A stretch of DNA of 64,000 bases. It comes from Fidelibacterota bacterium (GTDB taxonomy: Bacteria > Fidelibacterota > Marinisomatia > SCGC-AAA003-L08 > JACNLC01). The position numbers and the translations under genes are program-made. This document shows positions 1,522-36,872 of this stretch, one piece after another; positions within the stretch are counted from its first letter, which is position 1; every line of letters starts with the position of its first letter. The notes beneath the pieces are model-generated. The model was not told the DNA's origin. It worked only from the letters and a program-made list of their open reading frames with translations, and did no database searches. Location of the stretch: positions 10,125 through 74,124 of the forward strand of contig JACNLC010000050.1 in assembly GCA_014381725.1 (NCBI GenBank). The letters run 5' to 3'.

Positions 1522-1641
1522 ATCAATAATGTAAAACAACTAAATTATTACAACCAAATAAATAAAAATAAAAAGTATTGACTTTAACTAGTGATTATGT
1601 AGAAATTCTTTACACACTTTTACTATAATAAGGCATAATAC

Positions 1642-7030: not shown

Positions 7031-8025
7031 GAAAAAAATTAAATAAATTAATAGTATTGTTAGGCTTAATCTCATTGTCGTTTGGAGGGGTAGATTTTTC
7101 CAGTACAGAAATTGTACCCAAAACTGGTACTTCAGGGGGACATTTTTTATCCGTTAGTCCAGATGCTAAATTTGCAGGTATGGGCAATGCATTTTCAGGA
7201 TATGAAAATAATAGTGCTTCTTCTGTATTCTATAATGCTGCGACCCTTGTTTATGTGGATGCTTTAGATGTTTTTGCGAGCAGTGTGCAATGGATTGCAG
7301 ACATTCAATACACTGCAGGTGCAATAGCTTACCAAAGAGGAAGTCAATCGTTTGCCGCACACTATAGACTTCTAAATACCGGAAATATCGAGGAAACAAC
7401 TGTACATTATCCAAATGGCACAGGGTATGATTTTGCTTGGAAGAGTATGGCTGTAGGTGTGTCTTACGCAAAGCTACTCACAAACAGATTCTCATTTGGG
7501 ATGAATATTTTTTATGTTTCGGAGGGTGTCGCAAAGTATGATTTGAATGCTAATGCTGTAGGAGTGGATGTTAGCACTTTTTATGTAACTGGTTTTAATA
7601 GCTTGAAAATGGGAATGAATATCCGAAACTTTGGTCCCGAGCTGGATTTCAACGAATCTTTTGTTGATTATGCAGATGGAAACTCTGTATCTATAGAACC
7701 TTATCGACCATACCATATGCCATTAACTTTTCAGGTTGGTTTAAGTTATGATTTCTTTGAAAAACGCAAAAATGAATCTTTAATTGTCTGTTTGGATGGA
7801 GTTCATCCAAATGATTCTGTTGAAAGGCTCAATATTGGAGTAGAATATACTTACTTAAAGCTACTGTCTGTGAGGGGTGGATTATATACAAATCACGATT
7901 CAGCATCTATGATGGCTGGTATTGGAATTAATACAACAGGACGGAGTATTAGTTTAGATTACTCAATCTCAAATTATAATTTGTTGGGATTGATTCATCA
8001 ATTTAGCATAGGATTGGCACTATAA
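7027..8025 (+). CDS. PorV/PorQ-family outer-membrane beta-barrel protein
   Basis: GTSGGHFLSV..AKFAGMGNAF..VFYNAA..GMNIRNFG..HQFSIG; overlaps both neighbours. Confidence 0.8.
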   Translation: MRKKLNKLIVLLGLISLSFGGVDFSSTEIVPKTGTSGGHFLSVSPDAKFAGMGNAFSGYENNSASSVFYNAATLVYVDALDVFASSVQWIADIQYTAGAIAYQRGSQSFAAHYRLLNTGNIEETTVHYPNGTGYDFAWKSMAVGVSYAKLLTNRFSFGMNIFYVSEGVAKYDLNANAVGVDVSTFYVTGFNSLKMGMNIRNFGPELDFNESFVDYADGNSVSIEPYRPYHMPLTFQVGLSYDFFEKRKNESLIVCLDGVHPNDSVERLNIGVEYTYLKLLSVRGGLYTNHDSASMMAGIGINTTGRSISLDYSISNYNLLGLIHQFSIGLAL

Positions 8026-11000: not shown

Positions 11001-12368
11001 GGATATTCTGTGAGTCAAATGGATAGTTCAATAATAGCTTTATCGCCACTTCTTGATCCACAGGACACATTAATTTTTGATGGTTATGATGGTATTAATT
11101 ATAAAGCATCAAAGATAATGCTAAGAAGTGGCTACAGCGAACCAATGAGCTCATTGTTTGAAGTAGTAGATTTGGAGATTGACCAAATAAACGGAAAAGG
11201 CTTCATTCCCGTAACTACAAATAGTATTACGATAAATGATACTACATTTAACTTTACATTCAAAGATACAACCGATTACAAATGGACAGGAGTTCAAAAT
11301 ATGGCAATTGTGGTTGCAAAGGTTGATGACGAACAACCACCGGTAACTTATGATTTTGTGCTAACAAATATACAAACACCTCCAAATTATAGTGATTTTT
11401 ATGTTTTCCAGAATGTAGGCGCTAGAAATTATCTTGATCTTTATGTTGCGAGTGAGCGAACAATCTTTGATGAATTTGGTGTAGAGGGGCCACAGATTGA
11501 AGTGCAGAGTTTGTATGATACAACAATTGTTTTACTCGAACCTTCGTCTTTGTACTCAAATGATTACATTTTATACCACAATTTTTGGGAATTGGGGAAT
11601 TGGGATTCTTATTCGTTGATATATTCAGGTACTGACCAACATGGGATTGCAATAGACTCGGATACAATAGATGTTTCGTTAATATATTCTCAAGAGGTGT
11701 TAGAACGAGGATTTTATTCTCCATCTCAAAACTTTTGGATTGAATTTTCTGAAGAAATAAATATTAATACTAGATTAATCAGTTTCGAAACCGGAGCCAA
11801 CAATCACCTTATCAGTCAATTGCAAAATGATGATTTGGCAGTTATAAGCTCCACTGTTGCATATTTTGGACCAAGTGAGTTACAAACTGAAACACCGTTT
11901 AGATTAACTGCAAATCTGCCCGAAGAATATGATAATGTTCAACTTTATTCGTGCCAAAATGGGGACTGGATAAATTTAGGGGGGCATATCAACAACGGTG
12001 TGATTACGATATCAACAAATCGTTTTGGATATTTTGCAATTGTAGCAGGAGAAGAACATTATCCTGTAGATACTTCCTCATTGCTGCCAGAAAAATATAT
12101 TCTTCAGCAAAATTATCCAAATCCGTTTAATGCCACAACTCAGATAAACTATGGCATACCGCATGACTCTCATGTCAATCTATCAATTTATGATTTAAAG
12201 GGAAGACAAATAGCAGAATTAGTCAATGCGAAGCAACCAGCATCATGGTATTCTGTAATATGGGACGGTGCAAATCACAATGGCCAAACTTTATCATCCG
12301 GAGTATATTTCATAACTCTGAAAACAAACCAATCAATCAAAACTCAAAAAATGGTATTACTAAAATGA
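8025..12368 (+). CDS. Large secreted protein with M30-like metallopeptidase-fold segment (degenerate HEYTK) and T9SS type A sorting domain
   Basis: HGYFS..NGGDIIYLD..AISHEYTKLL..WLIEGLA; C-terminal LQQNYPNPFN..WDG..SSGVYF..KMVLLK. Confidence 0.7.
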   Translation: MKKMYFITLILISFCFTIEMEDCAYDLNSNTISITFDNLINTQDVLLGLMAFSDGTIELPLTGGEIVTEDEFSQSVEISLIYGEIIDSRGDYNYWGNTGDLAESVENMDLENLILIVQPPAFVSSDNQIIGYQEISVETIYSEDIYPVMESVYYDCNINMLTVEFDRIVQFDQLAEDRASEDDGPGNQQMDGNPTEDENDNGVLDMEQNIDVFKIGFSNDYGVMNLEGFDNILQVEDDTLISIYLTNLDAKKLESSLLINDTSTNANVSAGAFRDTNYNSNIMSSVAVTTIPDSILFVANSSSYNLSDNEMQIFFTDCRDVTYTDPTPIWSKFSFSDGENSISLSGIESVSTSGSTLKLRELLFSDQAAIENMISSNYEQGESSFYLSIEEYSVYDVNGNGNVEVVNIPIEIIEDFESPVLDEIFYDALENQITLNWSPDKINYYKSNKLSTTPELYDVSGIRVYSGTEYADTLEITTAHISRNSTKKETYLDLTLEEAGWIEFHSSDSLIMEIDAYTLYSSGAGNNSGNFTINLGISYNPDVVAPSVESAILNEESDTLHLIFDKNISLNTINLETLNVIINSETITLTTSVENMLSEFSDELYLSINETQMQSVAEAIPNNNIIEMDLVIPDSTIKSLDGVWKQEQTIDLSFGKNFWNKSFRAFAETPEEIFCSFKYLSDNLMIFVEDSLWNIDFDSSDIDSIVSFFSETKETLESYHGSFNDIDENGVLIFVLYDISDEYGKGKNDTNASLFTHGYFSLNAEESDEDYANGGDIIYLDINPQIVWDGEDEKDFNETMFNAISHEYTKLLITQNENIEEEWLIEGLAYLEQLRTSGDVKFFGNNTNPSAVAGNQLTYLSNSLKTRYDQWNIYLFLNYLFEKYTNTDGWDIINNISLNDTIQGLGSIDTALVELGFEKDVKDIFLDYAIASFLDMEHQEHYYDAAYAMDAVDLYGAPDGKNAGVMKFNDISPPPYSFSGLNPWSYSFYLIQGYSVSQMDSSIIALSPLLDPQDTLIFDGYDGINYKASKIMLRSGYSEPMSSLFEVVDLEIDQINGKGFIPVTTNSITINDTTFNFTFKDTTDYKWTGVQNMAIVVAKVDDEQPPVTYDFVLTNIQTPPNYSDFYVFQNVGARNYLDLYVASERTIFDEFGVEGPQIEVQSLYDTTIVLLEPSSLYSNDYILYHNFWELGNWDSYSLIYSGTDQHGIAIDSDTIDVSLIYSQEVLERGFYSPSQNFWIEFSEEININTRLISFETGANNHLISQLQNDDLAVISSTVAYFGPSELQTETPFRLTANLPEEYDNVQLYSCQNGDWINLGGHINNGVITISTNRFGYFAIVAGEEHYPVDTSSLLPEKYILQQNYPNPFNATTQINYGIPHDSHVNLSIYDLKGRQIAELVNAKQPASWYSVIWDGANHNGQTLSSGVYFITLKTNQSIKTQKMVLLK

Positions 12369-13324
12369 GAAAATATTTTATACTGTTCATACTGTCGGCA
12401 ATAATTCAATTCGGGTGTAATCCTTATAGTGATGATAATTATTTATACAATCCTCCGGATACCTATGTAAATCTGATGGTCGAGGGATGGGGTGCGTATG
12501 TTACAGGAGATTTTGATATTGCAATTGAAGCGTTTCAATCAGCAGCTGATAGGGACGCTACTAAACCAGAACCATATCTAGGATTGGGTTGGAGCTATGC
12601 AAGAACACCAAATTTAGAATCAGCAAAAGCAAATTTTTCTAAAACGCTTGCGTTTTCAGATTTTGATGATGAATTAGGCGATACTTTGCTTGCTGAAACT
12701 TATGCAGGGATGGCTTATGTGTTTATGGCAGAAGAAAATTGTGAATCAGCAATTGAATACAGTCAAAATGTAATAGGATTAAATCCTACATTTCAAATGA
12801 GATATGATGTATCAATAAACATTGATCGTCTTGAATTAATGGAATTAATTTGTAATTTCAACCTCCATAGTATTTCTGAAGCGTATTTGATGGCAAAAGA
12901 TATGGGAGGCGAATTCACAACTGTTTTCCAACAGATAAATGGTCAAGCTACCGTTGAACATATCGATAACACTGAATTAACAGGAGAACATAAAGGAATT
13001 CTTCAAGAGGTATTTGAAGATGTGAATGAAGACTGCGTTTACGACTCGTTAGAAACATTTACTGATGCTAACAATAACAATCTTTGGGACATAGTGAACG
13101 AAAGTTATTTTTTGATTTATGTAGAATCAGTACTGCTGTGTAGTGAAACACCTGATTCAGTTTATTCAGTACTGTCAATAGATGAAGGAACCAATACATT
13201 TTATTTTCAGGAAAACCCGATTATCCCGAACGAAGATACTATAATAGCAAATTATTACTATGTAGAAGATTACGGTTTGTTTCTGAATGAACTTTTAGCG
13301 ATTTTATCATCGTTAAACAACTAA
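12365..13324 (+). CDS. TPR-containing lipoprotein
   Basis: Likely start ATG at 12365 (ATGA overlap with upstream stop); lipobox IQFGC; TPR EGWGAY..AFQSA..YLGLGWSY. Confidence 0.7.
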   Translation: MRKYFILFILSAIIQFGCNPYSDDNYLYNPPDTYVNLMVEGWGAYVTGDFDIAIEAFQSAADRDATKPEPYLGLGWSYARTPNLESAKANFSKTLAFSDFDDELGDTLLAETYAGMAYVFMAEENCESAIEYSQNVIGLNPTFQMRYDVSINIDRLELMELICNFNLHSISEAYLMAKDMGGEFTTVFQQINGQATVEHIDNTELTGEHKGILQEVFEDVNEDCVYDSLETFTDANNNNLWDIVNESYFLIYVESVLLCSETPDSVYSVLSIDEGTNTFYFQENPIIPNEDTIIANYYYVEDYGLFLNELLAILSSLNN

Positions 13325-13382
13325 TTTTAGGTTGATAAACCCTAAAAAACAGAAAAATAGTATAAAAAGAAAGGAAAGTACT

Positions 13383-16300
13383 ATGAAGAAGAAGTTAACA
13401 GTAATGTTAGTTTTGTGCTTAACAGCATCTTTTATTTTTGCAAAGATGCCAGTTGACCAGAAAACTACAAAACTAACAACAAACAAGACCCAGTTTGTAA
13501 TACCGGGTAAGAACCTGATTGCTTCCCAGTCAATGATGGATAATGTTATAAAAAATCAAATGGCACGGCAGGGAAATGATGATTCTGATGTTTTACCTTT
13601 ACATCGCCATGCTGCAAGTAAGATTGCAACACGGGACTGTGAAGGTTGCTGGGATTTATCTCATGTGGATGAGACGGCAGAATGGTATCTTGGAAGTGGT
13701 GCCGCTAGCGATACAATGGCAGTAGCATTTACAGCCGCCGCACCATGTATTGTTCAGGAAGTATATTGTCAATGGTTTGACGGTGGGAATATTACTGCAT
13801 TTGCGTCAATGGTGAGTGATATTGCGAACGAAAATACCGGCAATACCGGAGCTTCAACAGGTTGGCCTCGCGGAACGGCGCCATGGTCGCCAATTGGGCA
13901 AATGATGACTAATCCAACTCCAAATACTGCTGTTGGAGATAATAGCTATGAATTATTGGATATTGGCGGAACATTCCAAGTAGGAGACGAAAGTGATCTT
14001 GCAAACACGCCTGCATTCATGATAATCATTATTAAAGGTGCAGAAACTCCTCATCCATTAGCATCTGATGTTGCAGACAACACTTACCTATGGTTTGGTG
14101 GTCCTTGGACCGACCCTGATGGTGATATTACAACCCCAGATGGTGACTGGGGTGATGGATACGCATGGGGATCATACCAGAGTTCAGGAAGTATGGACAG
14201 CGGATTAATCGACAATATGGTTTTGGTTAAAGTAACATATCCTTGGGGTGCTCCAATTGCATCGAGTGCCAGTCAGTTACCAAACACTTATGCTACCACA
14301 AACACATTAGAAGTATTAGTTGATTTATTTGATGATGTTGACGATGCAAGTGGGTATGCAATCAATGACGATGATATTATCAACTTTATTTATTCCGTTG
14401 ATGGCGTGGAAACAACCCTAACACTTGCGGATGCTTTACCGGTTGATGTTGGTGCAGAAGGCAATGGTGTTTATGCGTTCAACATTGATTATACTGGGAC
14501 AGCAGGAACTGTAATTGAATATTGGTTAGAATTAACTGATAACGATGGTTTGTATTCAGAAACTGCTCCATTAAAGTTTGAAGTTAAAGCTCCATTAAAT
14601 ACAGATGCAGATCTTCTAATTATCAACGACCGTGCTGGTAGTTACAATGTTGACCTTTATGAAACCGTTGTTGCAGATATGGGAATTATTTTTGAAACTT
14701 GGAATGTTACAGACAATAATGGTATAGATGCTTCTGTAATTAATTTCGGTTGGTCATCCATTGTTGTTTATGGATGGGGAACTTCAACAGTTCCAATTAT
14801 TGCCGAAGAAGAAGACCCAGGATATGGTGCTTTCTTAGATGCTGGCGGACATTTATTGTTAGTTGACCAAGACTGGTTTTATGGTCATGCACTAGATGTA
14901 TCACCTGTTTTTGAAGCTGGTGATTTTGCTTATGACTATTTTGGTTTAGCTGGTGGAGAAAATGACCCTATGGATGAAGAAGGACTCAATAGTATAGGCG
15001 ATACTTTAGTAACAAGTCTAATAGATGGGTTATTTGAAGAAGAAGAAATTGCCTTGGCTCATGACATATATGGAACTTCCAATTGGGCTGATTATCTCTA
15101 TGAAGGTGATGGAGTTGGTATATTTGCTGGATTTGATTCTGATGAAATTGTTGGTATTCAAAATGGAAATGCAACATATTTATCATTCATGGCGGATGCA
15201 GCGGTTGACACATTAGAAACCGGTGAATTAACTTACGATCAGTTTGGAACCTTATTGAACTATATTATAACTGACTTTGGAGTAACTTCACCTCCTGTTG
15301 CTTGGTTTGTTGATGGGCCAACAGGGCATATTTTCACCCAGGAAGACCAAACTGTTACATTTGGTGCTGAAGATCCGGACGGTGATGCTTTTACGGTTGA
15401 ATTATCATATATTGTGAATGACGGCGAAACGACAGTTGTCTCCACTATAGATAATGGAGATGGCTCATTTACGGGCACAATTCCAGGACAAGGAAGCGGT
15501 GCTGTTGTTGATTATTTTGCTGTTACGACAGATGACACAGGAGCATCTTATACAACCGAAGTTTATAACTATGATGTATATTCTCCATCTTCAAATGTCT
15601 TGTTTGTGTTAAACAATGAAATGGACCCAGCGGGATATCCTGGATTGTATTACTTCTATAATTCAGCAACTGGTGGATTGTATTTAATGCCAGATTTTTG
15701 GGTTGGTGCTGTTGTGCCTGAGTTACTTGACTTTTATGATACAGTATTTGAAATTGCAACTACAAACACATACGATAGTTTTTACGATCACTATGATGTT
15801 GTCCATGCTTGGTTGCAAGATGGAAATAAAAACTATGTATTAGCAGGCGATGAATTGTTCTACATGCTAGGTGTTGACGGGGCAACAGAAGCAGGAACAT
15901 TCTTTAACGATTTAGGAATTGCTGAAGCCCACAGTGATTTATCCTATCCAGATGAATATTCAGGAACTTCACCCTTATATGCAGTTGAGAATGATCTGAT
16001 ATCTGGTGATTTATTTGCTGGAATTAATGACCTTGGAGATGGTAGCGAACTAATGTATGACCCTCTCTATGAAATCGGATTAGACTACAACTGGATTGAT
16101 GGAATGGTTGCTACGGAAGATGCAACCCCAACAATTTATCATACAGCTACTGATTTGGCTGTTGGAGTTTATAAAGAATGGACAAATGGCAACAAAACAA
16201 TGTATCTTGGTTTTGATCCATTATCATTAAATTCAGCACCAACTTATGATTGGTGGGGCGCAGGTGATGCTGGTACTTTGAAAAAAGCTCTTGATTGGTT

Positions 16301-27832: not shown

Positions 27833-27946
27833 TACGAAATTTAGAGAACACTTTATAAACAAACCACGAATTAACACAAAAATATTGTAAAACTAGAATC
27901 TTTGCTATTTAGCGAAGAGAAATTTATGCGCTGTTTAAAATATTTT

Positions 27947-28489
27947 TTAGTTTCTTATTTGCCATAATATAAAATCAATTTTCTTTATATCAGAAATTCC
28001 AGATTCTGGATATTCATTCTCAAAGATTTCTAGCATTTGAATTCCTTCTGAGGATATTGTCATATTCTTATACCAGCAAAAAATTCGATTATATAATTTT
28101 ACTGTGTCTTCGATTCTTGTTTTACTATATTGAGCAGGTTTTTTTAGTTTTAAATTTTCTAGTACGAATACATCCCAGATTGGCATTGATGTATTAATTG
28201 TTGCTAATAGTTTACTTGAAAATGAAGCTTCAATTCTACCAAGCTTTTCATTTAGAGTTATTAATATTTCATTAAATTCTAAAGGTTTTGTTTTGCATTC
28301 TTCCAATAATGAATAATATGTCTGATAGAAATCTTTTGGTCGCTGTCTAATGCGATAAAACCCATTGAATTTGCGTTGAAATTCTATGTCTTGAGAAACA
28401 TCAACTTCATAGAAGTTATCCATAATAGTCTTGTATTTCTTTAGCCCTGGTTCAATTTTATGAATTGCTTTTTTTGTGCTTTCTATCAT
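27947..28489 (-). CDS. Hypothetical cassette-like protein, possible HhH DNA-glycosylase-like fold
   Basis: Start MIEST after GAGGAG; FQRKFNGFY, SFSSKLL..PIWD, KKIDFILW motifs. Confidence 0.55.
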   Translation of the reverse strand: MIESTKKAIHKIEPGLKKYKTIMDNFYEVDVSQDIEFQRKFNGFYRIRQRPKDFYQTYYSLLEECKTKPLEFNEILITLNEKLGRIEASFSSKLLATINTSMPIWDVFVLENLKLKKPAQYSKTRIEDTVKLYNRIFCWYKNMTISSEGIQMLEIFENEYPESGISDIKKIDFILWQIRN

Positions 28490-28528
28490 CTTCGTCTCCT
28501 CTTGTTTTGTCTTTAAATTATTAATGGC

Positions 28529-28660
28529 ATATAACGGTTGGAATATGGCTTTGTGGCGGTTTTTGAAACACAAATCTTTCAATTTACACCGATTTTAATT
28601 TATTGTTAAATCGCTCATATTTAGCACTTCACCAGCCATAAACTATATACATTGTAGTGG
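28529..28660 (-). repeat. attC-like recombination site (~132 bp)
   Basis: Minus strand R''-like CCACTAC 13 nt after the upstream stop, R'-like GTTATAT just before the next gene's RBS; arms ATATGGCTTTGTGGC / GCCATAAACTATAT pair with one extrahelical base. Confidence 0.6.
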
Positions 28661-28673
28661 TTAGTATTTTTTC

Positions 28674-29645
28674 TTAAAACACATTGTCTAAATTATCTGC
28701 ATTCAATATTTTTTCTTTTGAAGAGTATCTTGGACTCTGAGGTGCTTTACCCTTTCCTTTTCCAAGAGGAACTTTTTTGATTTTTTCAGCAGGTTCTGTA
28801 AAATGTAAAATATATTTATGTGTATTTTCCCATTGTTCAACTGATTTAATCTCTGCAAGGTGTGTTATTGCAGAAATCGGAGCAACTTGATAAGCAGCAA
28901 TGTACTTAATTTTAGGAATCATAAATGAATTTAATCTGATAGCATACCAACAATTTTCATTAATAAAAGTATCTTTAAAACCATCTTCTCTTGCCGGGAT
29001 TACAATTGTATCAATATCAGAAAAATCAATTTTTTCTATATCTTCACTAATTTCATTAAGGAAAGGTTCAAATTTATAGAGTATTTTCCCATTCTGATTT
29101 TTAAATTGTTTTAAGGTTATTACTTCTACTGGAAATTTAAATCTACTTATAAGGACAGTTTCTAATTCTTCTCCAAGTTCATCAATAATCAAAAGGGCAT
29201 TAAAAGAATCTTTTTTATGTATGATTGATTCCAACAAATAATCAACATTTTCAAAACCGTTCTTATATGCAAACCTTTCACATTTATTCCATTCTTCCTG
29301 TCTTTTATGAAGCATCTCCTTTATGATATTCTTGACTTTAACTTTTGAAGTCTCAAATGACAATGAAAACTCTAAGATTTGAACAGCAATATGCTTTAAA
29401 TGTTGATGACTTGCAAGGTCATTTTCAACAACAAATATTTTCGGGTCTTGATTATTTGTTAAATCTATTAAATATCCATCTGGTAAATTATTTGTTCTCC
29501 CCTTTTTCCCAATCTTCTTTTTGTCATCGAGGTAAATTCGTGTTGAACCAAATAAAGTTCCTTTTACTACATTAACTGCATCTTCAAGTTCTGATTCCTT
29601 TTCATAAGGAATTTCTAAAAATTTATCATCGTTATTCCATAGCAT
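28674..29645 (-). CDS. Putative PD-(D/E)xK-like nuclease fused to a C-terminal PUA/EVE-like domain
   Basis: E.ELE..LFG..LPDGYLIDL..VVENDLASH; C-terminal DTIVIPAREDGF..WYAIR..YIAAYQVAPISAITH. Confidence 0.55.
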   Translation of the reverse strand: MLWNNDDKFLEIPYEKESELEDAVNVVKGTLFGSTRIYLDDKKKIGKKGRTNNLPDGYLIDLTNNQDPKIFVVENDLASHQHLKHIAVQILEFSLSFETSKVKVKNIIKEMLHKRQEEWNKCERFAYKNGFENVDYLLESIIHKKDSFNALLIIDELGEELETVLISRFKFPVEVITLKQFKNQNGKILYKFEPFLNEISEDIEKIDFSDIDTIVIPAREDGFKDTFINENCWYAIRLNSFMIPKIKYIAAYQVAPISAITHLAEIKSVEQWENTHKYILHFTEPAEKIKKVPLGKGKGKAPQSPRYSSKEKILNADNLDNVF

Positions 29646-29864
29646 AATTTATCTCGTTTTAATATTTGCCACAACAGACATATAGCATTTATTTTTTCTT
29701 ATGTATATATTGTCATACCCCGCCTTGTAGTTACTTATGAGTTTGTTGTTTAATTTGTAAAACTCATCAAAGTTGCTTTGTTTAAGTTTAATACTATTAT
29801 TTTTGTGATTCCAAATGTTTTTTAAAGTTTGCTCGTCAAATTTACACACATGGTACCCACTTTC

Positions 29865-29893
29865 GTGCAAATTAAAACCAAAGAGTATAAAAT
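29865..29893 (+). promoter_or_regulatory. Sigma70-like promoter facing CRISPR repeat A
   Basis: GTGCAA-N17-TAAAAT, hexamers and spacing identical in unit B. Confidence 0.5.
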
Positions 29894-29939
29894 AATTGTT
29901 ATCTATAATCGTAACTGTCCTCAGACAAGCATTTTAAAA

Positions 29940-29975
29940 GTCTAAGACCGATATAAAATTTCTACTGTTGTAGAT
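29940..29975 (+). CRISPR. Solitary type V-A (Cas12a) CRISPR repeat A
   Basis: 36 nt GTCTAAGACCGATATAAAATTTCTACTGTTGTAGAT with the canonical 19-nt Cas12a handle (stem TCTAC/GTAGA, loop TGTT) and GTCTAAGA 5' end. Confidence 0.9.
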
Positions 29976-30054
29976 AATCTCCTTTTTATTTTGCAAATCC
30001 AAAACTTTTATCCCTTACAAAATTATTCTATTCATACTTTTCGTTAACAATTAA

Positions 30055-31092
30055 TCATTTATCCTTAAAAATTCTTTTAATTTCTTTATCAAAATCGCTT
30101 TCAAAAAGTTTGTCTTGTACTATGCGGTATTTTTCAAACTCGCTTTCGGCCTTGTCTTTGGCTATTTCTGCTGATATACTTCCTGCACTTTTAAGCACAG
30201 CTCTATCATCATATTCTAAAAACAAATCAAGTCGTTTTGCCCAATCTTGCATTGTCATTGGAATGTTACGTTTTGCTCGTACTTCTGCTAAATCCAAATA
30301 AGCATTTACAATTCGTCCTAATTCTTCCAGTTCATCTTTTGAAAGATAATTTTTAGCAATAGAAACATCTGTTTTTAGGATTTTCCCTTCAGGGCTATTT
30401 TTCCAAGATGATAAACCCATTTTATCTTTCGTACTATCGGCTCTTTTGTATATTAATTCAGCGGCTGTATGTTTGTGTACACCATAATGCAGTTTATTTT
30501 GCACTTTTGCAAAAAACTCACGAGTAGTATGGGCATCTTTGTTATAATCAAAGCTGGTAGCATAAATATCTGTTACTTTTTGATAAAACTTACGCTCACT
30601 TAATCTTATCTCTCTTATTTCAGCGAGTAGCTCTTCAAAATAATTTTCGTTCAGGTAAGTACCATTTTCCAAGCGTTTTTTATCCAGTACAAAACCTTTT
30701 ATTGCAAACTCTCGCAACACTTTTGTAGCCCATTGCCTGAATTGTGTGGCTCGAATAGAATTAACTCTGTACCCAACCGAAATGATAGCATCAAGATTAT
30801 AAAATGCTACAGTTCGTTTTACATTTCTGTTACCTTCTTTTTGAACTATTGGGAATTTCCCAATAGTTGATATTTCATCTAACTCGTTATTTTTGTAAAT
30901 ATTTTTTAGATGTTCGTTTATAGTGCTAATATCAACTTCAAAAAGTTCTGCAATAAGTTTTTGAGTTAGCCAAATAGTTTCATCTTCATAACGAGCTTCA
31001 ATGCTATTTTCACCCTCCTGAGAAGTAAATATCAAAAATTCGGCTGTGCTATTGCGGATTAACTGCTGATCTTTTTTTGATTTATCTGGCAT
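30055..31092 (-). CDS. rhuM: Virulence RhuM family protein
   Basis: ETIWLTQK..AELF, YNLDAIISVGYRVNS.RATQFRQWAT, EIREIRLSERKFYQK; start MPDKS. Confidence 0.9.
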   Translation of the reverse strand: MPDKSKKDQQLIRNSTAEFLIFTSQEGENSIEARYEDETIWLTQKLIAELFEVDISTINEHLKNIYKNNELDEISTIGKFPIVQKEGNRNVKRTVAFYNLDAIISVGYRVNSIRATQFRQWATKVLREFAIKGFVLDKKRLENGTYLNENYFEELLAEIREIRLSERKFYQKVTDIYATSFDYNKDAHTTREFFAKVQNKLHYGVHKHTAAELIYKRADSTKDKMGLSSWKNSPEGKILKTDVSIAKNYLSKDELEELGRIVNAYLDLAEVRAKRNIPMTMQDWAKRLDLFLEYDDRAVLKSAGSISAEIAKDKAESEFEKYRIVQDKLFESDFDKEIKRIFKDK

Positions 31093-31093
31093 A

Positions 31094-31288
31094 TTATTTC
31101 CTCTTTTTTCGGGTTTTCTTTTCTTTGGCAAACAAAGCACCTTGTTCTTTTTCTTCTGCCATCATTTTTTCGTAGAATTTAAACAAATACTCCAATCGCT
31201 CTTCATCGCTATTAAATTGTGTGCTTCGATAACATTTTTCAATGATTATATCGTTTTGGCGATGTGCTTCACGCAGACCTTCAGGCAT
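31094..31288 (-). pseudogene. C-terminal remnant of an MmeI-like (type IIL) restriction-modification enzyme
   Basis: MPEGLREAH..ND..IEKCYR...F.SDEERLEYLF..YE resembles the MmeI/YeeA C-terminal tail; the rest of the gene is absent. Confidence 0.7.
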
Positions 31289-31610
31289 TTTAAGGTCGGA
31301 TTTATTTGACTTTCAATATTCATAATGTATTATTTAGCTCATAAAAAGACTCTTTTTAGCTCAAATGAATCAATTATTGAGCGACATTCTCTACGCTAAT
31401 GAGCTGTAATATCTGTATATACAACATATAGCATTTATTTTTTCTTATGTATAAATTGTCATACCCCGTCTTGTAGTTACTTATGAGTTTTTTGTTCAAC
31501 TTGTAAAACTCATCAAAGTTGCTTTGTTTAAGTTTAACACTATTATTTTTGTGATTCCAAATGTTTTTTAAGGTTTGCCAGTCAAATTTACACACATGGC
31601 ATCCACTTTC

Positions 31611-31639
31611 GTGCAAATTAAAACAAAAGAGTATAAAAT
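31611..31639 (+). promoter_or_regulatory. Sigma70-like promoter facing CRISPR repeat B
   Basis: GTGCAA-N17-TAAAAT. Confidence 0.5.
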
Positions 31640-31686
31640 AATTATTATCTATAATCGTAACTGTCCACAGGAAAGCATTTTTAAAA

Positions 31687-31722
31687 GTCTAAGACTGAAA
31701 TGAAATTTCTACTGTTGTAGAT
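31687..31722 (+). CRISPR. Solitary type V-A (Cas12a) CRISPR repeat B
   Basis: 36 nt GTCTAAGACTGAAATGAAATTTCTACTGTTGTAGAT; 3 differences from repeat A, all outside the 3' handle. Confidence 0.9.
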
Positions 31723-31829
31723 TGTAACAGTTTGTAACAGTTCCCGTATTTCGTTGGATTTTACAAGATTGTTAGTTAACTTCGAAGTTGTATCTATGTA
31801 TATAAATTAAGCTTTAAAAGGAGAATGTT

Positions 31830-34800
31830 ATGTTATTCATAAAATCATCACTAAACCGCTTAGTAACTATTGTTTCTATTATTTTTATGATGTCTTTTGC
31901 TTCTACGCAAGATTGGATAGAGCTTTCAATAGATGTCAATCCTGATAATCCCACAATAAACGACGAAGTTACAATTACAATTAGCGGATTGACTCCGTCT
32001 AATTTAGTCGAAGCAAATTCAACTTTTGCTATAGATGGTAATCATATATTCATTTTGACTAATGTTTACATCGGGAATTATGATATTGTTGAAGAGTTTG
32101 AAGTCAGTAATGAAATTGGGAATCTGTCATTAGGAGAATTTCAAATTATGGTTACTGCAGATTATTATCAATATGACCCTAACGGAAACGCTGAACCAAT
32201 ATTCACAATTACAGGGGAAGAGCATTTTCAAGTTATTGACCCTGAGCCACTAACAGGGGTTTTTGGCAATGTGTGGGCGACAAATGATTGGGGAATTGAA
32301 ATGCCAGTTCCTGGCGCTACTATTGAAGCGTTGTTGGAAAATAGTGAAACTGACCCCGTATTCTTTACAACAACAAACGAAAACGGTTACTACGAATTGC
32401 AACTCGAACCGGGGTTTTATACGGTTACTTGCTCTAAAGAAGGATTAATTCCTCAATCTGAAGGCATTGAAATTGGTAATGCTCCAGCTCAGTTAGATTT
32501 TATGCTTGAGCATTCTTACAACACTCATTGGATTTCTGGAACAGTTTTTGGGTTGGGAGAAAATGATCCTGATAATCCAAATGAGCCATTTCCTCTTCCT
32601 GGAGCATTAGTAGAATTATTGGGATTACTAAATGGTGAATGGGCATATATTTGGGAAACGGAAACAAATGAAATTGGATATTACGAAGTTCCAATAATGG
32701 AATTTCCTGCGATTTATGATGGGTTGGCACTTAGATCTTCTACAGAAGGATATTATCCTCAGTTACAAGAAATTATACATGATGATACTGAGTTTCCAGT
32801 TATTATGGATTTTTACCTCGAACCAATTAGTGATTTTGAAGCATATCTGTTAGGACATGTTTATTCAGCATCAGACGATGCAAGTAATATGTTTCCAATT
32901 GGCGAAGCACATGTAGAAATATTTGATAATAATTCATCGGATCTTTACGCTGATACTTTCACAGATGAAACAGGATATTATGAATTTGGTGAAATTGCTA
33001 GTTCGGCAACTTGGATTAGAGTTAGTGCAATTGGTTATGTAACTCAAGAAATGGAAATACCTCAAATTGATTGCAATACAGGACGATGTTGGCCAATTAC
33101 GATGGATTTTTATCTTGAGCAAAATGAAGAAACCATTGTTTTCTTGCACGGTTTGGTTGGGACTTATAGTGAAAACGGTGAGATGATTCCAATTGAGGGT
33201 GCTTATATCGCTGTGCCGGAAGAAGCGGGGAATTATTTTCATACAACGACCGATACCGATGGTTTTTACGAAATGGAATTCCCGTGGATGTGGAACGGTC
33301 CAATCACAATTATTTGCGAAGCAGATGGATATTATACTCAATCTGTAACAGTTTTCCCTGAAGATAATTCTCTCGAAATCGAACAGAATTTTATTTTAGA
33401 ACCGTATCAAGAACCGGGGGAGGGTGTTTTAGCAGGATTCGTAACAGCACAAATTTCTCCAATGGGGCCGGAATTCCCAGTAGTTGGTGCAATAATGGGT
33501 GCAACCCCAACCTGGGGACCTGAGCCGTGGCTTGAAACATCAACTGATGAAAATGGTTACTACGAGATAGAACTTTGGGCAAACCAAGCCCCTTGGCATG
33601 TATTTTGCACAACAGAATATGGCAGCCAAGAAGAGTTTGCTGTAATTCAGCCAAATGAAGTTACGGAATTGAATTTTCACTTCAATGCGTGGGAACAGGA
33701 ATTTCCACCACCGTTCGATTTAACTGCAACATTAATGGACGATGAAGCGGCTGTTTATCTTCATTGGCAATATGAATATGATTTCCCAGGCAGTGAATTG
33801 ATGCACTTTAATGTTTATGCAAATTTAGGTGAAGATTCTGACATCCCTTGGCTATTTATAGGCACTGCAGAAGAAACAAATTTTGTACATTATCTAATGA
33901 CACCAGGAGAAAATATAACCGGTGAAATTTGCTATAAAGTTACAGCTGTTGAACTTGACACTAATCTAGAAACAGAACCAAGCAACATCGCTTGTGTAAC
34001 TCTAGATCCACCTGAAAATAGTGTTTTATATGGACATGTAACCGGTGGCTCTTGTTGGGAGTGTGATGATTGGCACGATTTGGCTGGTGCAACTATAACA
34101 GTATTTGCTGAAAATAGTGATATTGTTTTTGGTGTAGCAACAGACGAAGAAGGAAATTATGAACTTGAATTGCCTGCTGGTTACTATGTTGTAACAGCAG
34201 AACATCCTGAGTTTCCATCACAGACTCATACAATTCACATTGAACCAAATACAGAAAACGAACTTAATTTCATTCTGTTGTTAGAGAATGGATTTAGTCA
34301 GCTGTTCGGAAATGTAATTTGGCAAACTCCTAACGGTAATCAACCCATAGCTGATGCACATATCATTGCGTATCCCGATAGCGTTAACTCTGGATTTGAA
34401 GCATTTAGTAACGAAAATGGACATTATGCTATGGAAGTAACTGCAAATACTCATTATTTTGTGGTTTGCTCTTTTTCTACTGCTGAAATGGAATGGTCCC
34501 AAACTCAAGAGATTTTTGTGGGATATGAGCCATCCGAGCTTAACTTTATCTTTGGTGAAGAGCCACCAATGGAAGCAAGTATATTCGGATTTGTTGGAAT
34601 TGCCGCACCAAACGGAGATGTAGAGCCTGTATCTGGAGCTCAAATAATCGCAACTTGTTCAGAAAGTGGTGAAATATACGAAGCAACTACAGATGAAAAC
34701 GGCCATTATGAAATGCTCGTTTTCCCGAATAGTTTATATGTTGTTTCGTGTCAATTAGAAGGAGTTACTCAATCTCAAGAAGTTTTCGTTCATGAAGCAC

Positions 34801-36872
34801 CAGTGCAAATTACTTTCATTTTTGGCGAAGAGCCACAATTTGGTTTATTAACAGGCAATGTGCGATCTGTCTGCGATTTGCCAGAATGGTGGGACTGTCC
34901 ACCTATTTCTGGAGCATTGGTTTATGTGCATAATGCAATGTTTGAAACGGAAATCCATACAAATGATGAAGGTTATTTCGAGGTAATGCTACCTCCTGCT
35001 GGTGGTTATAGTAGTTACCAGTTACATGTTATGGCAGAAGGATTTGAGGATTATCATTATTCAGATTTGATAGAAATCTATCCTAATCAAGAAACTCATG
35101 TGGATATCAATATGTCGCCACTTTATGAAAATAATGGTTCTATCTCTGGTTTCGTTTACCAAGAAGAAACGGATTCTCCAATTCCTGGAATAGAAGTCAA
35201 TTTATTTGGTGAAGATAATTGGTGTGGATACAATACTACAACAGATGACAACGGATATTATTTTATTGAAGATATATGTTCAGGCCAATATACAATTGAA
35301 GTTTTTGCTGATGGCTATGAACACTACGAACACGAACATATAATGATTTATCCAGGCGAGGAAACGAATTTTGATGTTTTCTTAACTCCAATATCAGATT
35401 ATCCAGACTGGGTAGTTGATGTTCATGCTTATGAGTTTAACATGGCATTGGCTGGATTGCTTTATTTTGACGGTGAAGAATCATTCGATGAAAATGATTT
35501 ACTAGGTGCGTTTGTAGGAGAGGAATGTCGCGGAGTTGCTCAACCAACATACTTCCCATTAACAGAACGATACACTGTTAACATGATGATTTACAGTAAT
35601 CTGACAGAAGGGGAATTAGTTTCATTTAAAGCATTTGATAATTCAGAAAGTATTGTTTATGAGAATGTAATCGAAGCGTTGGAATTCCAAGCAGATGGTA
35701 TTATTGGAAATGACCTTGAGCCATTTGAAATTCATGCTGTTTCAACGATTACGATGAGTATGGAATATTCTGAAGGTTGGAATTGGTTTTCTTTAAATCT
35801 GATTAATGAAGATATGTCGCTTAACACGGTTTTGGAATCGCTTGGTAGTAACGCAAGTTTTATCAAGAATCAAGATGGTTATGCAAATTATTATGATGAT
35901 TATGGTTGGTATGGACTGGAAACATTTGATTCGATGAGTATGTATATGATTTTGGTTAATGCTTCAACTGGATTTGCGTTTGACGGGTATCCTATTAATC
36001 TTGAGGAAAATTACATTCCTTTGTCCGAAGGATGGAATTGGATAAGTTATTTTCCACAACATTCTTTAAGCTTAGACGATGCTCTTAATAGCATTGAGCC
36101 AAATGGTGTTTTTATTAAAAATCAGTTTGCTTATGCAAATTACTACGCATATTATGGTTGGTACGGATTAGAGGTGATGGAGCCGGGCGGAGGGTATATG
36201 TTGCTTGTGGGAGAAGTTTCTGAGCTCATTTATCCGACCCCTTTTATTAGGTTATCAAAAACAGATAAGCACAATAACTACAATTGGACTGTTAACCCAC
36301 ATCAATACGAGTACAACATGGCCTTGACTTGTATAGTAGAAAATGGTGATGATTTTGTTGTTGCGGCTTTTGTGGGAGACGAAATTCGTGGTGTAGCTAA
36401 ACCTACCTATTTCCCTCCGGAAAACAGAAATACAGTTAATTTAACGATCTATGGAAGTGCTATCGGTGAAGATATATCATTCAAAATATTTGATGAAAAC
36501 ACTAACGAAGTTTTTAATGTGCTCGAATCAATTGAATTTGAAATTAACGGAATAATCGGAGATGATTTTGAACCGAAACTATTAAGAATAAAACATGAAA
36601 TCCCAACGGATTTTGTTCTAAATCAAAATTATCCTAATCCATTTAATCCTGTTACGACGATCAGTTATCAACTACCAACTGATGTAAATCTATCTGTTTC
36701 TGTCTTTGATGTTCAAGGCAGAATAGTTGATAATCTTGTGGAAATGTCAATGCAAAAGGCTGGCTATCATTCTGTTGTCTGGAATGCAGAAGGCTTTGCG
36801 AGTGGACTTTATATTGTTACGATTGAATCAGATAAATATTTTACTACACAAAAAGTACTATTGATGAAATAA
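31830..36872 (+). CDS. Giant secreted protein with many carboxypeptidase-regulatory-like beta-sandwich repeats and a T9SS type A sorting domain
   Basis: AAGGAG RBS; about 9 repeats of G.V..P..GA.I..T(D/N)ENGYYE; duplicated (A/Q)YE(F/Y)NM and GWNW(F/I)S modules; NYPNPFNP..SGLY..KVLLMK. Confidence 0.85.
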   Translation: MLFIKSSLNRLVTIVSIIFMMSFASTQDWIELSIDVNPDNPTINDEVTITISGLTPSNLVEANSTFAIDGNHIFILTNVYIGNYDIVEEFEVSNEIGNLSLGEFQIMVTADYYQYDPNGNAEPIFTITGEEHFQVIDPEPLTGVFGNVWATNDWGIEMPVPGATIEALLENSETDPVFFTTTNENGYYELQLEPGFYTVTCSKEGLIPQSEGIEIGNAPAQLDFMLEHSYNTHWISGTVFGLGENDPDNPNEPFPLPGALVELLGLLNGEWAYIWETETNEIGYYEVPIMEFPAIYDGLALRSSTEGYYPQLQEIIHDDTEFPVIMDFYLEPISDFEAYLLGHVYSASDDASNMFPIGEAHVEIFDNNSSDLYADTFTDETGYYEFGEIASSATWIRVSAIGYVTQEMEIPQIDCNTGRCWPITMDFYLEQNEETIVFLHGLVGTYSENGEMIPIEGAYIAVPEEAGNYFHTTTDTDGFYEMEFPWMWNGPITIICEADGYYTQSVTVFPEDNSLEIEQNFILEPYQEPGEGVLAGFVTAQISPMGPEFPVVGAIMGATPTWGPEPWLETSTDENGYYEIELWANQAPWHVFCTTEYGSQEEFAVIQPNEVTELNFHFNAWEQEFPPPFDLTATLMDDEAAVYLHWQYEYDFPGSELMHFNVYANLGEDSDIPWLFIGTAEETNFVHYLMTPGENITGEICYKVTAVELDTNLETEPSNIACVTLDPPENSVLYGHVTGGSCWECDDWHDLAGATITVFAENSDIVFGVATDEEGNYELELPAGYYVVTAEHPEFPSQTHTIHIEPNTENELNFILLLENGFSQLFGNVIWQTPNGNQPIADAHIIAYPDSVNSGFEAFSNENGHYAMEVTANTHYFVVCSFSTAEMEWSQTQEIFVGYEPSELNFIFGEEPPMEASIFGFVGIAAPNGDVEPVSGAQIIATCSESGEIYEATTDENGHYEMLVFPNSLYVVSCQLEGVTQSQEVFVHEAPVQITFIFGEEPQFGLLTGNVRSVCDLPEWWDCPPISGALVYVHNAMFETEIHTNDEGYFEVMLPPAGGYSSYQLHVMAEGFEDYHYSDLIEIYPNQETHVDINMSPLYENNGSISGFVYQEETDSPIPGIEVNLFGEDNWCGYNTTTDDNGYYFIEDICSGQYTIEVFADGYEHYEHEHIMIYPGEETNFDVFLTPISDYPDWVVDVHAYEFNMALAGLLYFDGEESFDENDLLGAFVGEECRGVAQPTYFPLTERYTVNMMIYSNLTEGELVSFKAFDNSESIVYENVIEALEFQADGIIGNDLEPFEIHAVSTITMSMEYSEGWNWFSLNLINEDMSLNTVLESLGSNASFIKNQDGYANYYDDYGWYGLETFDSMSMYMILVNASTGFAFDGYPINLEENYIPLSEGWNWISYFPQHSLSLDDALNSIEPNGVFIKNQFAYANYYAYYGWYGLEVMEPGGGYMLLVGEVSELIYPTPFIRLSKTDKHNNYNWTVNPHQYEYNMALTCIVENGDDFVVAAFVGDEIRGVAKPTYFPPENRNTVNLTIYGSAIGEDISFKIFDENTNEVFNVLESIEFEINGIIGDDFEPKLLRIKHEIPTDFVLNQNYPNPFNPVTTISYQLPTDVNLSVSVFDVQGRIVDNLVEMSMQKAGYHSVVWNAEGFASGLYIVTIESDKYFTTQKVLLMK

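What the first reader, a model, noticed from the sequence alone, without database searches (positions are those of the whole stretch)
29678..31722. Two duplicated promoter-leader + solitary Cas12a-repeat units inside a defence islet, with no array or cas genes
Seen: two ~93% identical 298/299-bp units. Each ends exactly at the last base of a single 36-nt repeat (29940-29975, 31687-31722) carrying the invariant handle AATTTCTACTGTTGTAGAT. A GTGCAA-N17-TAAAAT promoter sits ~46 nt upstream in the crRNA-sense orientation. The 3 repeat differences avoid the handle, and the downstream sequences are unrelated. Established: this handle is the type V-A crRNA element that Cas12a binds and processes by itself; solitary repeat units in other systems act as RNA anti-CRISPRs or as regulatory/antitoxin crRNA-like RNAs. 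Inference: these are portable single-repeat modules, i.e. Cas12a decoys, single-guide regulators, or empty arrays primed for acquisition in trans.
Basis: partly seen in the sequence, partly recalled or inferred. Interest (0 to 1): 0.9.

Follow-up and report, generated by a model that had tools for sequence, protein, structure and literature searches.

The report
Two orphan Cas12a repeats, likely relics
Two lone Cas12a-type CRISPR repeats really sit in a small inserted gene islet of a marine bacterium that has no Cas12a, but the DNA in front of them is a patchwork of a broken jumping-gene end and a scattered repeat, so they look like duplicated leftovers, not working RNA devices.

Summary
There are two units of 298 and 299 bp that are 93% identical. 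Each ends exactly at a 36-nt type V-A repeat, and these are the only two copies in a 98%-complete genome without cas12a. Independent metagenome contigs bridge both repeats, so they are not collapsed arrays. Unit 1's repeat is 36/36 identical to the repeat of a canonical cas12a-cas4-cas1-cas2 array in a same-order genome.

The "promoter-leader" reading fails. The upstream 262 bp is a mosaic. One part is a 125-bp dispersed repeat with at least 5 other copies. The other is the last 103 bp of an IS481/IS3-like transposase gene and IS end, found at many contig ends. This mosaic is fused 4 nt before the repeat and is unlike the true leader. The proposed promoter lies inside the IS piece and fails a sigma-70 scan.

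The repeat (3/36 changes) has diverged as fast as the rest of the unit (17/262). The islet is a 3.8-kb insertion relative to a same-genus genome. It holds a truncated type IIG restriction gene, and its right edge is the last base of repeat 2.

Best reading (about 0.6): a duplicated scar of a lost or imported V-A array. A decoy or regulator role is not excluded (about 0.1). Interest is low to moderate.

The parts
29678..29975 (+). Unit 1 (298 bp): about 26 nt shared only with unit 2, then module A, module B, AAAA, then the V-A repeat
31424..31722 (+). Unit 2 (299 bp), 93.3% identical to unit 1. Its last base is the right edge of the islet
29940..29975 (+). Solitary type V-A (Cas12a) repeat 1, 36/36 identical to the array repeat of G015 and L038. 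The 5-bp stem with UGUU loop is predicted
31687..31722 (+). Solitary V-A repeat 2. It has 3 changes (repeat positions 10, 13, 16) and an intact handle
29704..29832 (-). Module A in unit 1: a dispersed ~125-bp repeat. Other copies are on C51, C32, C5, C39 and a partial one on C13. It carries a non-conserved short ORF and a hairpin, and it usually lies just 5' of a same-strand gene
31450..31578 (-). Module A in unit 2
29833..29935 (-). Module B in unit 1: the last ~103 bp of an rve-type (IS481/IS3-like) transposase gene plus the IS end (...FNLHESGYHVCKFDE). It is truncated on its inner side 4 nt before the repeat
   Evidence: (loose end at 29935 runs on into the IS interior)
31579..31682 (-). 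Module B in unit 2
29866..29894 (+). It lies inside module B and is present in other IS copies. The promoter scan does not list it
30055..31140 (-). RhuM-family gene (Pfam PF13310, E 1.8e-111; PADLOC candidate PDC-S05, E 2.3e-156), lying between the units
31094..31288 (-). 64-aa remnant matching only the last ~46 residues of type IIG restriction-methyltransferases (MmeI_C). G175 has a gene of at least 564 aa that is 85% identical in DNA to this piece
28674..29645 (-). orf323, of unknown family. A NucS_C-like nuclease is only a lead (0.88). It starts 33 nt beyond the left end of unit 1
27947..28582 (-). orf211, of unknown family
27884..31722 (.). Islet: 3.84 kb that is absent between the amidohydrolase gene and the 1680-aa gene in the same-genus genome G001, where the matched blocks lie 81 bp apart
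31723..31739 (+). TGTAACA-N3-TGTAACA, the native upstream element of the 1680-aa gene (three copies in G001). It is not a spacer

Best explanation
The two units are paralogous copies of one mosaic scar, not purpose-built leader-repeat modules.

A single illegitimate join fused three things. The first is a dispersed 125-bp intergenic repeat (module A). The second is the last ~103 bp of an IS481/IS3-like insertion sequence that had landed next to module A (module B). The third, 4 nt further on, is one repeat of a type V-A CRISPR array.

The whole 298-bp block, junction included, then came to sit at the head of two minus-strand gene cassettes in a 3.8-kb variable islet. One cassette is orf323-orf211. 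The other is a truncated type IIG restriction gene followed by RhuM. The duplication most likely arose by recombination between homologous blocks when a cassette was brought in, that is, Campbell-type or unequal crossing-over (inferred).

The Cas12a repeat is a fossil of an array that was lost from this lineage, or of a donor's array. With no Cas12a in the cell, any transcript through it has nothing to bind.

What may keep the block in place is its minus-strand side: an IS end plus module A directly upstream of the cassette genes, and its use as a stretch of homology for cassette exchange (inferred).

Shown: the repeat's identity, that it is solitary, the mosaic origin of the 'leader', the shared junction, the insertion relative to a congener, a truncated neighbouring gene, and an even rate of divergence.

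Inferred: the order of events, the recombination route and the lack of function.
For: 1. The upstream 262 bp is built from repeats found elsewhere in the same genome. Unit positions ~27-155 match C51, C32, C5 and C39 at 83-91%, and part of C13. Positions 156-258 match C84, C53, C28, C55, C47 and C43.

2. Module B is the 3' end of a minus-strand gene ending ...HESGYHVCKFDE. By tblastn this gene end is also seen at the ends of C78, C20 and C50. Longer relatives match rve_3 (E 2.6e-5) and NCBIfam IS481, up to the end of the profile (E 3.9e-6). Metagenome contigs that overlap module B run on at 29935 into the IS interior instead of the repeat (table 7).

3. Both units share the same junction, module B then AAAA then the repeat, so the junction formed once.

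4. The true leader in front of the identical repeat in G015 and L038 is unrelated to the unit.

5. The proposed promoter lies inside the IS piece, recurs in other IS copies and fails the scan.

6. There is no sign of selection on the repeat: 3 of 36 positions changed (8.3%) against 17 of 262 (6.5%). Changes in module B are derived in both copies: 4 in unit 1, 6 in unit 2, 1 ambiguous. The fused minus-strand ORF differs at 9 of about 85 residues.

7. No Cas12a was found. TIGR04330 gives 0 hits in G000 (98% complete), while the same model finds Cas12a in G015, G256 and G239. tblastn with three Cas12a proteins gives a best E of 0.31.

8. The islet is an insertion relative to G001. Similarity resumes at 31723, the first base after repeat 2, and what follows is the native TGTAACA element.

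9. The islet shows decay: only the last 64 codons of a type IIG gene remain.

10. It is not an assembly artefact. Contigs from 3 studies bridge repeat 1 (29796-30869 in X9 and X10; 29713-30103 in X11) and repeat 2 (31542-33000 in X9 and X10; 31631-32015 in X11) with 0-1 differences.
Against: - Both handles are perfect (19/19), and all 3 repeat changes fall in the part Cas12a would trim off. Unit 1's repeat is 36/36 identical to a functional array although the units differ from each other by 7%. Each fact is weak on its own (p about 0.1-0.3 by my arithmetic), but both are in the direction expected for a retained function.
- In both copies similarity ends exactly at the last base of the repeat, and the edge of the islet coincides with it. 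A random segmental duplication would not be expected to end there. I have no demonstrated mechanism for this.
- The genome is a 88-contig metagenome bin. CRISPR-cas loci are often left unbinned, so the absence of cas12a is 'not found', not proven.
- The IS family assignment rests on C-terminal fragments that score below the curated cut-offs.
- No RNA data could be examined.
Confidence: 0.6

Rival explanations
1. The units are working solitary-repeat RNAs (Racr-like decoys). They would be transcribed from within the IS remnant, and the handle would bind Cas12a of related marine strains or of incoming elements. This would protect the islet, or DNA exchanged with cas12a-bearing relatives, from type V-A interference.
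For: - The repeats are solitary, intergenic and have intact handles and stem-loops.
- The repeat is identical to that of an active-looking V-A locus in a same-order genome.
- Three V-A solitary repeats were shown to inhibit MbCas12a (PMC10651486, passages read).
- The islet is a horizontally variable insertion.
- There are two copies.
Against: - There are no phage, plasmid or integrase genes around it, and no match in viral contigs, phages or plasmids.
- The host lacks the cognate system. In the paper, 83% of prophage SRUs whose host encodes CRISPR-Cas matched the host subtype.
- The upstream DNA is an IS fragment without a scoring promoter.
- The repeat is no more conserved than its surroundings.
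Confidence: 0.1
2. The units are crRNA-like regulators (CreR/CreA-type single guides) or empty arrays awaiting spacer acquisition. They would use a Cas12a or Cas1-Cas2 supplied in trans.
For: - The handle is identical to the cognate repeat, as in V-A CreR (10.1101/2023.03.10.532045, passages read).
- The genome does encode a Cas1 and Cas2, of another system.
Against: - They are not next to any cas operon, and no cas12a was found.
- The 30 nt after repeat 1 have no second match in the genome longer than 17 nt. Those after repeat 2 are the native upstream motif of the next gene. TGTAACA-N3-TGTAACA occurs at 3 sites in the genome, and none is preceded by TTTV.
- The upstream DNA is unlike the real V-A leader.
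- The Cas1 on C22 is only 34% identical to the V-A Cas1 over 143 residues.
Confidence: 0.04
3. The block is kept for its other strand. IS end plus module A would form a portable 5' expression element for the minus-strand cassettes, and would also be the stretch of homology through which cassettes are swapped. The CRISPR repeat would be a passenger at its far end. This overlaps with the best explanation and differs only in claiming selection on the block.
For: - In minus orientation, 5 of 7 module A copies lie directly upstream of the start of a same-strand ORF: unit 1 (orf323, 33 nt), C51, C5, C39 and C13. Unit 2 and C32 do not.
- Each unit heads one cassette.
- IS481-family ends are known to carry outward promoters (recalled, not from a call).
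Against: - No promoter or transcript was shown.
- Module A's short ORF is frame-shifted among copies, and no Rfam family matches.
- Intergenic repeats often lie near gene starts by default.
- Unit 2 precedes only a gene remnant.
Confidence: 0.22
4. Assembly artefact: each 'solitary' repeat is a collapsed multi-spacer array.
For: This is a short-read metagenome bin, and arrays often collapse or break.
Against: - Contigs of 3 independent studies pass through both repeats into unique DNA on both sides with 0-1 differences (table 8).
- No joint or loose end at 29975 or 31722 appears among those listed. 19 loose ends and 69 pieces were not shown.
- The exact repeat occurs twice in the genome.
Confidence: 0.02

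Closest known systems
Type V-A (Cas12a) CRISPR direct repeat, as in the cas12a-cas4-cas1-cas2 locus of a Candidatus Neomarinimicrobiota genome (G015; record title shown)
   Same: The repeat is 36 nt and identical at 36/36 (unit 1) or 33/36 (unit 2). The 19-nt handle and the 5-bp stem with UGUU loop are the same.
   Different: There is one repeat per site instead of 12 or 34 spaced by 25-30-nt spacers. There are no adjacent cas genes, and the upstream sequence is unrelated to the real leader.
Solitary repeat units / RNA anti-CRISPRs (Racr; RacrVA1-3), Camara-Wilpert et al. 2023, PMC10651486 (passages read)
   Same: It is a single CRISPR repeat with no partner within 100 bp. It is intergenic, of V-A type, and not linked to cas genes.
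   Different: The described SRUs lie on phages, prophages and plasmids, mostly in hosts with the matching subtype, often behind a predicted promoter and near acr genes. Here there is a chromosomal islet without phage or plasmid genes, a host without V-A, an IS fragment upstream, and no expression data.
CreR/CreA degenerate mini-CRISPR regulators, including V-A CreR of Moraxella bovoculi (bioRxiv 10.1101/2023.03.10.532045, passages read)
   Same: It is a repeat-like element with an intact Cas12a handle followed by non-spacer DNA.
   Different: CreR lies upstream of its own cas operon, and its guide part matches a PAM-flanked site at the cas12a promoter. Here there is no cas12a, no PAM-flanked target and no second degenerate repeat.
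Orphan or remnant CRISPR repeats left by IS-mediated decay of CRISPR-cas loci (general knowledge, recalled; no paper read for this)
   Same: The repeat abuts a truncated IS. Neighbouring defence genes are truncated. The cognate cas genes are missing. Divergence looks neutral.
   Different: The remnant is duplicated together with its IS junction. Both copies end precisely at the repeat's last base, at cassette and islet borders, which simple decay does not predict.

Membership tests
Type V-A CRISPR repeat | A ~36-nt repeat whose 3' 19-20 nt form the Cas12a handle with a short stem-loop | tested here: met
   Exact handle found twice. Stem UCUAC/GUAGA with loop UGUU is predicted in both.
Type V-A CRISPR repeat | The same repeat occurs in arrays next to cas12a | tested here: met
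   G015 C78 has a cas12a C-terminal part (628 bits, over the cut-off), ORFs at the cas4, cas1 and cas2 positions (assigned by size and order, not scanned), and 12 repeats, 11 of them 36/36 identical to unit 1. L038 has 34 identical repeats.
CRISPR array (including mini-array) | Two or more repeats separated by spacer-length DNA | tested here: not met
   The repeats are 1747 bp apart. No 36-mer better than shuffles lies within 200 nt of either unit on either strand. There are only 2 copies in the genome.
CRISPR leader | The upstream region is conserved with the leader of the cognate array | tested here: not met
   The window matches L036 and L038 only in the repeat itself. The G015 leader is printed. 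The upstream DNA is IS plus dispersed repeat.
Racr / solitary repeat unit of mobile elements | Solitary, intergenic repeat match | tested here: met
Racr / solitary repeat unit of mobile elements | Carried by a phage, prophage or plasmid | tested here: not met
   0 matches in viral contigs, phages and plasmids. The neighbours are topA, proS, an amidohydrolase and a large repeat-containing protein gene. The islet is nevertheless an insertion relative to G001.
Racr / solitary repeat unit of mobile elements | The host carries the matching CRISPR-Cas subtype | tested here: not met
   No cas12a in G000 (98% complete bin) by HMM or tblastn. This means not found, not proven absent.
Racr / solitary repeat unit of mobile elements | Expressed as a small RNA and inhibits the Cas effector | not testable with these tools
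   No RNA holder was listed. The promoter scan gives no support.
CreR/CreA crRNA-like regulator | Lies beside its cas operon and its guide matches a PAM-flanked promoter site | tested here: not met
IS481/IS3-like insertion sequence (module B) | rve-type DDE transposase | tested here: inconclusive
   Only C-terminal pieces are available. The G000 tail matches IS3 at E 0.067. Relatives match rve_3 at E 2.6e-5 (24.3 bits, cut-off 26.5) and IS481 at E 3.9e-6 and 8.3e-7, far below the 224-bit cut-off. The rest of the gene is not in the bin.
IS481/IS3-like insertion sequence (module B) | Multi-copy, with a sharp common end and unrelated flanks | tested here: met
   Copies on C84, C53, C28, C55, C47 and C43 share an end at (T)CGTCAAATTT. 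Further matches to the tail on C78, C20 and C50 were found by tblastn only. Most lie at contig ends.

The most novel reading that the evidence does not exclude
The block is a chromosomal, islet-borne RNA anti-CRISPR or cassette-capture device. The Cas12a repeat at the outer end of each cassette would be transcribed and would soak up Cas12a of related Marinimicrobia during DNA exchange. Alternatively, the 3' end of the repeat would itself be the recombination point at which defence cassettes are joined. That would explain why both units and the islet border end exactly at its last base.
Probability: 0.1. Interest if true: 0.7.

Novelty: new member of a known kind. Interest (0 to 1): 0.3.

Why it matters
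If the relic reading is right, this mainly serves as a caution. A perfect Cas12a handle behind an AT-rich "promoter" can be a duplicated scar. In such a case the apparent leader should be checked against the rest of the genome before an RNA device is proposed.

It also records two things. A Marinimicrobia lineage without Cas12a carries the exact repeat of a V-A system found in another family of the same order. And small variable islets here are assembled from cassettes headed by the same recombined block.

If the units were functional, they would extend RNA anti-CRISPRs, or CRISPR-repeat-directed recombination, from phages and plasmids to chromosomal defence islets of uncultured marine bacteria.

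Tried and rejected
Expression:
- The look-up of sequencing runs listed no RNA holder.
- One run labelled metatranscriptomic but flagged "probably DNA" (X14) was laid as contigs. Its listed pieces do not cover 29851-29970 or 31623-31823. This says nothing about expression.

Collapsed array:
- Rejected, because contigs from 3 studies bridge both repeats.
- Caveat: 69 pieces and 19 loose ends were not shown.

RNA families:
- 0 matches in the window at gathering score.
- 0 matches in 29600-31800 at E up to 1.
- No tRNA or tmRNA that could serve as an attachment site.

Mobile-element context:
- The exact repeat pattern gave 0 hits in viral contigs.
- Unit DNA gave 0 hits in phages and plasmids.

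Spacers against this genome:
- 98 distinct spacers were taken from V-A arrays of G015, G010, G239, G256, G114 and L038.
- None hit the genome at E up to 0.001.
- The 33 L038 spacers alone gave only 16-17-nt matches.

Would-be guides:
- No second genomic match longer than 17 nt (that output was very long and was cut).
- My first motif count used the wrong spacing (N4) and found 0. It was corrected to N3.

orf323 and orf211:
- No Pfam, NCBIfam or PADLOC family, and only weak PHROGs hits.
- Atlas look-alikes are unnamed clusters. NucS_C at 0.88 is a lead only.

Other solitary hits in the phylum sample:
- G217 has one exact handle with a degenerate 5' half, in an intergenic region, and no cas12a was found there.
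- G220 and G346 share a 1-mismatch hit that is probably chance. The reversed-pattern control hit 5 of the 401 genomes.

Limits:
- The origin of the exact right-hand boundary was not resolved. Campbell-type insertion, unequal crossing-over and spacer-integration geometry were considered on paper only.
- Supplementary data of PMC10651486 (SRU lists) could not be consulted. They might list similar V-A SRUs.
- No search was made for papers on IS-mediated CRISPR decay. That comparison is recalled.
Full report
**Observation**

The two units are real. Unit 1 is 29678-29975 and unit 2 is 31424-31722. They are 93.3% identical over 299 columns. Each ends at a 36-nt repeat carrying AATTTCTACTGTTGTAGAT.

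The handle occurs twice in the window, against 0.04 expected. It occurs exactly twice in the whole 2.18-Mb, 88-contig, 98%-complete genome. The three differences between the repeats lie at repeat positions 10, 13 and 16, outside the handle, and similarity stops right after GTAGAT. No further repeat, even a degenerate one, lies within 200 nt of either unit.

**Is it a Cas12a repeat?**

Yes. A same-order genome of another family (G015) carries a canonical V-A locus on one contig. The record title names it a Candidatus Neomarinimicrobiota MAG. The contig holds:
- a cas12a C-terminal part (628 bits, over the TIGR04330 cut-off);
- ORFs at the positions of cas4, cas1 and cas2;
- a ~110-nt leader;
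- 12 repeats, 11 of them 36/36 identical to unit 1's repeat.

A metagenome contig of the same lineage (L038) has 34 identical repeats with 25-30-nt spacers. The stem-loop of the handle is predicted in both window repeats.

Across all of genome contigs the exact repeat pattern was found only in that one record. It was found in two metagenome contigs and in no viral contig.

**Not an assembly artefact**

At least 13 marine metagenome runs from at least 5 studies hold 86% or more of the region's sampled words. Logan contigs of three studies were laid on the region (table 8):
- Repeat 1 is crossed by 29796-30869 (X9 and X10) and 29713-30103 (X11).
- Repeat 2 is crossed by 31542-33000 (X9 and X10) and 31631-32015 (X11).
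- All of these have 0-1 differences.

Contigs break inside the units, where other genomic copies of the upstream modules compete, and not at the repeats.

**The 'promoter-leader' is a mosaic**

When the unit is searched against its own genome, the upstream 262 bp falls into two independently repeated modules.

Module A covers unit positions ~27-155.
- It recurs on C51, C32, C5 and C39 at 83-91%, and in part on C13.
- It is intergenic and has a conserved hairpin.
- Its short ORF is frame-shifted among copies.

Module B covers unit positions 156-258.
- It recurs on C84, C53, C28, C55, C47 and C43. By tblastn it is also seen at the ends of C78, C20 and C50.
- It is the 3' end of a minus-strand gene ending ...FNLHESGYHVCKFDE.
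- All copies share a sharp end at (T)CGTCAAATTT with unrelated flanks, and most lie at contig ends.
- Longer versions in relatives match the C-terminal part of rve_3 (E 2.6e-5) and of NCBIfam IS481 (E 3.9e-6, up to the end of the profile) and IS3. All of these scores are below the curated cut-offs, because only fragments are available.
- Metagenome contigs that overlap module B continue at 29935 into sequence like the C84 interior instead of the repeat (table 7). Full IS copies therefore exist in the population.

The unit is thus module A, then the last 103 bp of an IS that had inserted beside it, then AAAA, then the CRISPR repeat. Both units share this junction, so it arose once and the whole block was then copied.

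The real leader in G015 and L038 is unrelated to this upstream DNA. The sigma-70 scan does not list it, and that scan finds no excess of promoter-like sites in the region (14 against 12.6 +/- 3.3).

**No sign of selection**

The repeat changed at 3 of 36 positions (8.3%), and the rest of the unit at 17 of 262 (6.5%). When module B is polarised against other IS copies, both units carry derived changes: 4 in unit 1, 6 in unit 2, 1 ambiguous. The fused minus-strand reading frame differs at 9 of about 85 residues.

The intact handles and the 36/36 identity of unit 1 to G015 do point towards retention. By my arithmetic, though, they are individually unremarkable (p about 0.1-0.3).

**No partner protein**

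- TIGR04330 finds nothing in G000.
- It also finds nothing in the same-genus genome or in any of the 8 same-family genomes searched. It does find Cas12a in G015, G256 and G239, and a fragment in G010.
- tblastn with two full-length Cas12a proteins and the G015 part gives a best E of 0.31.
- The genome does have another CRISPR-Cas locus on C22, with Cas1, Cas2, CARF and Csm6-HEPN proteins and a different repeat.

**Context**

In the same-genus genome G001, the amidohydrolase gene and the 1680-aa gene are neighbours, with matched blocks 81 bp apart. In G000, 3.84 kb (27884-31722) lie between them. Similarity to G001 resumes at 31723, the first base after repeat 2.

The sequence after repeat 2 is TGTAACA-N3-TGTAACA. 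This is the native upstream element of the large gene, with three copies in G001, and it is not a spacer.

All islet genes are on the minus strand:
- orf211 and orf323, both of unknown family;
- a RhuM-family gene (PADLOC candidate PDC-S05);
- a 64-codon remnant matching only the last ~46 residues of type IIG restriction-methyltransferases. G175 has a gene of at least 564 aa that is 85% identical in DNA to this piece.

Read on the minus strand, each unit heads one cassette: unit 2, then the gene remnant, then RhuM; and unit 1, then orf323, then orf211. In that orientation, 5 of 7 module A copies in the genome lie just upstream of the start of a same-strand ORF.

**Interpretation**

The best-supported reading is a duplicated mosaic scar. 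A V-A array, once present here or in a donor, was reduced to one repeat joined to a truncated IS. The 298-bp block was then duplicated when a second cassette entered the islet, most simply by recombination between homologous blocks. The repeat has no partner in this cell. The steps after the junction are inferred.

The main fact this does not explain is the right-hand boundary. Both copies, and the islet itself, end exactly at the last base of the repeat.

**Rivals**

- A Racr-like decoy. V-A Racrs are known to work: PMC10651486, passages read.
- A CreR-like regulator or an empty array: 10.1101/2023.03.10.532045, passages read.
- Selection on the other strand of the block, as a cassette leader or recombination anchor.
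- A collapsed array.

The first two fail on the missing cas12a, the lack of a mobile-element context, the lack of a target and the lack of a leader. Without RNA data they cannot be excluded.

One further solitary exact handle was found among 401 phylum genomes. It is in G217, is intergenic, and no cas12a was found there. Orphan V-A repeats are therefore not unique to this genome.

**Verdict**

The 'promoter-leader' and the functional-module inference are not supported. The feature is a new instance of a known kind, an orphan solitary CRISPR repeat, with an unusual duplicated IS-fused form. Interest is 0.3.

Noticed in passing
G000 contig C22 (locus L045) 1-14000: A second, different CRISPR-Cas locus. 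It has Cas1, a Cas2-like ORF, a Csm6-HEPN protein, two CARF (Cas_APE2256) proteins (one fused to an MBL/beta-CASP nuclease) and a large helicase. Repeats GTCTTAATCCACTCGGTATGTGGAGGGGATTCTAAC lie at 13380-13630. At 12293-12702 a 151-nt period is 99% identical, and there the repeat seems split by a GC-rich ~80-nt insert.
   Followed up: partly
window 31723-31739; G001 C30 intergenic region; G000 C15:83105 and C87:12759: TGTAACA-N3-TGTAACA lies upstream of the 1680-aa gene. It is conserved in the same-genus genome, where it has three copies. There are only 3 such pairs in the genome. It may be a binding site for a regulator or an alternative sigma factor.
   Followed up: partly
window 29704-29832 and 31450-31578; G000 C51:67946-68069, C32:26241-26366, C5:7425-7546, C39:63665-63786, C13:833-882: Module A is a ~125-bp dispersed intergenic repeat with a conserved 8-bp hairpin (ATGAGTTT...AAACTCAT). 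In 5 of 7 copies it lies directly 5' of a same-strand ORF. It may be a portable promoter or leader element.
   Followed up: partly
L050 (G217:C47) 1484-1519: Another solitary Cas12a-type repeat (exact handle, degenerate 5' half) in a same-class genome in which no cas12a was found. It lies between a T9SS-tailed protein gene and a DUF4143/AAA_14 ATPase gene.
   Followed up: partly
window 31094-31288 (-): A 64-codon 3' remnant of a type IIG (MmeI-like) restriction-methyltransferase gene, directly upstream of the RhuM gene. The rest of the gene is missing.
   Followed up: yes
window 31830-36872 (+): A 1680-aa ORF with internal DNA repeats of ~291-297 nt (repeat finder families D2 and D5). It is probably a large secreted repeat-domain protein. 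G001 has many partial matches to its repeat region on several contigs.
   Followed up: no
G000 contigs C47:3600-3800 and C43:65-330: A second, more distant group of IS tails (...FNLPQGGYHVCKFD) is preceded by GC-rich palindromic sequence (GGCAGGCGGGCCTGCCCGCC). This is unusual in such an AT-rich genome.
   Followed up: no
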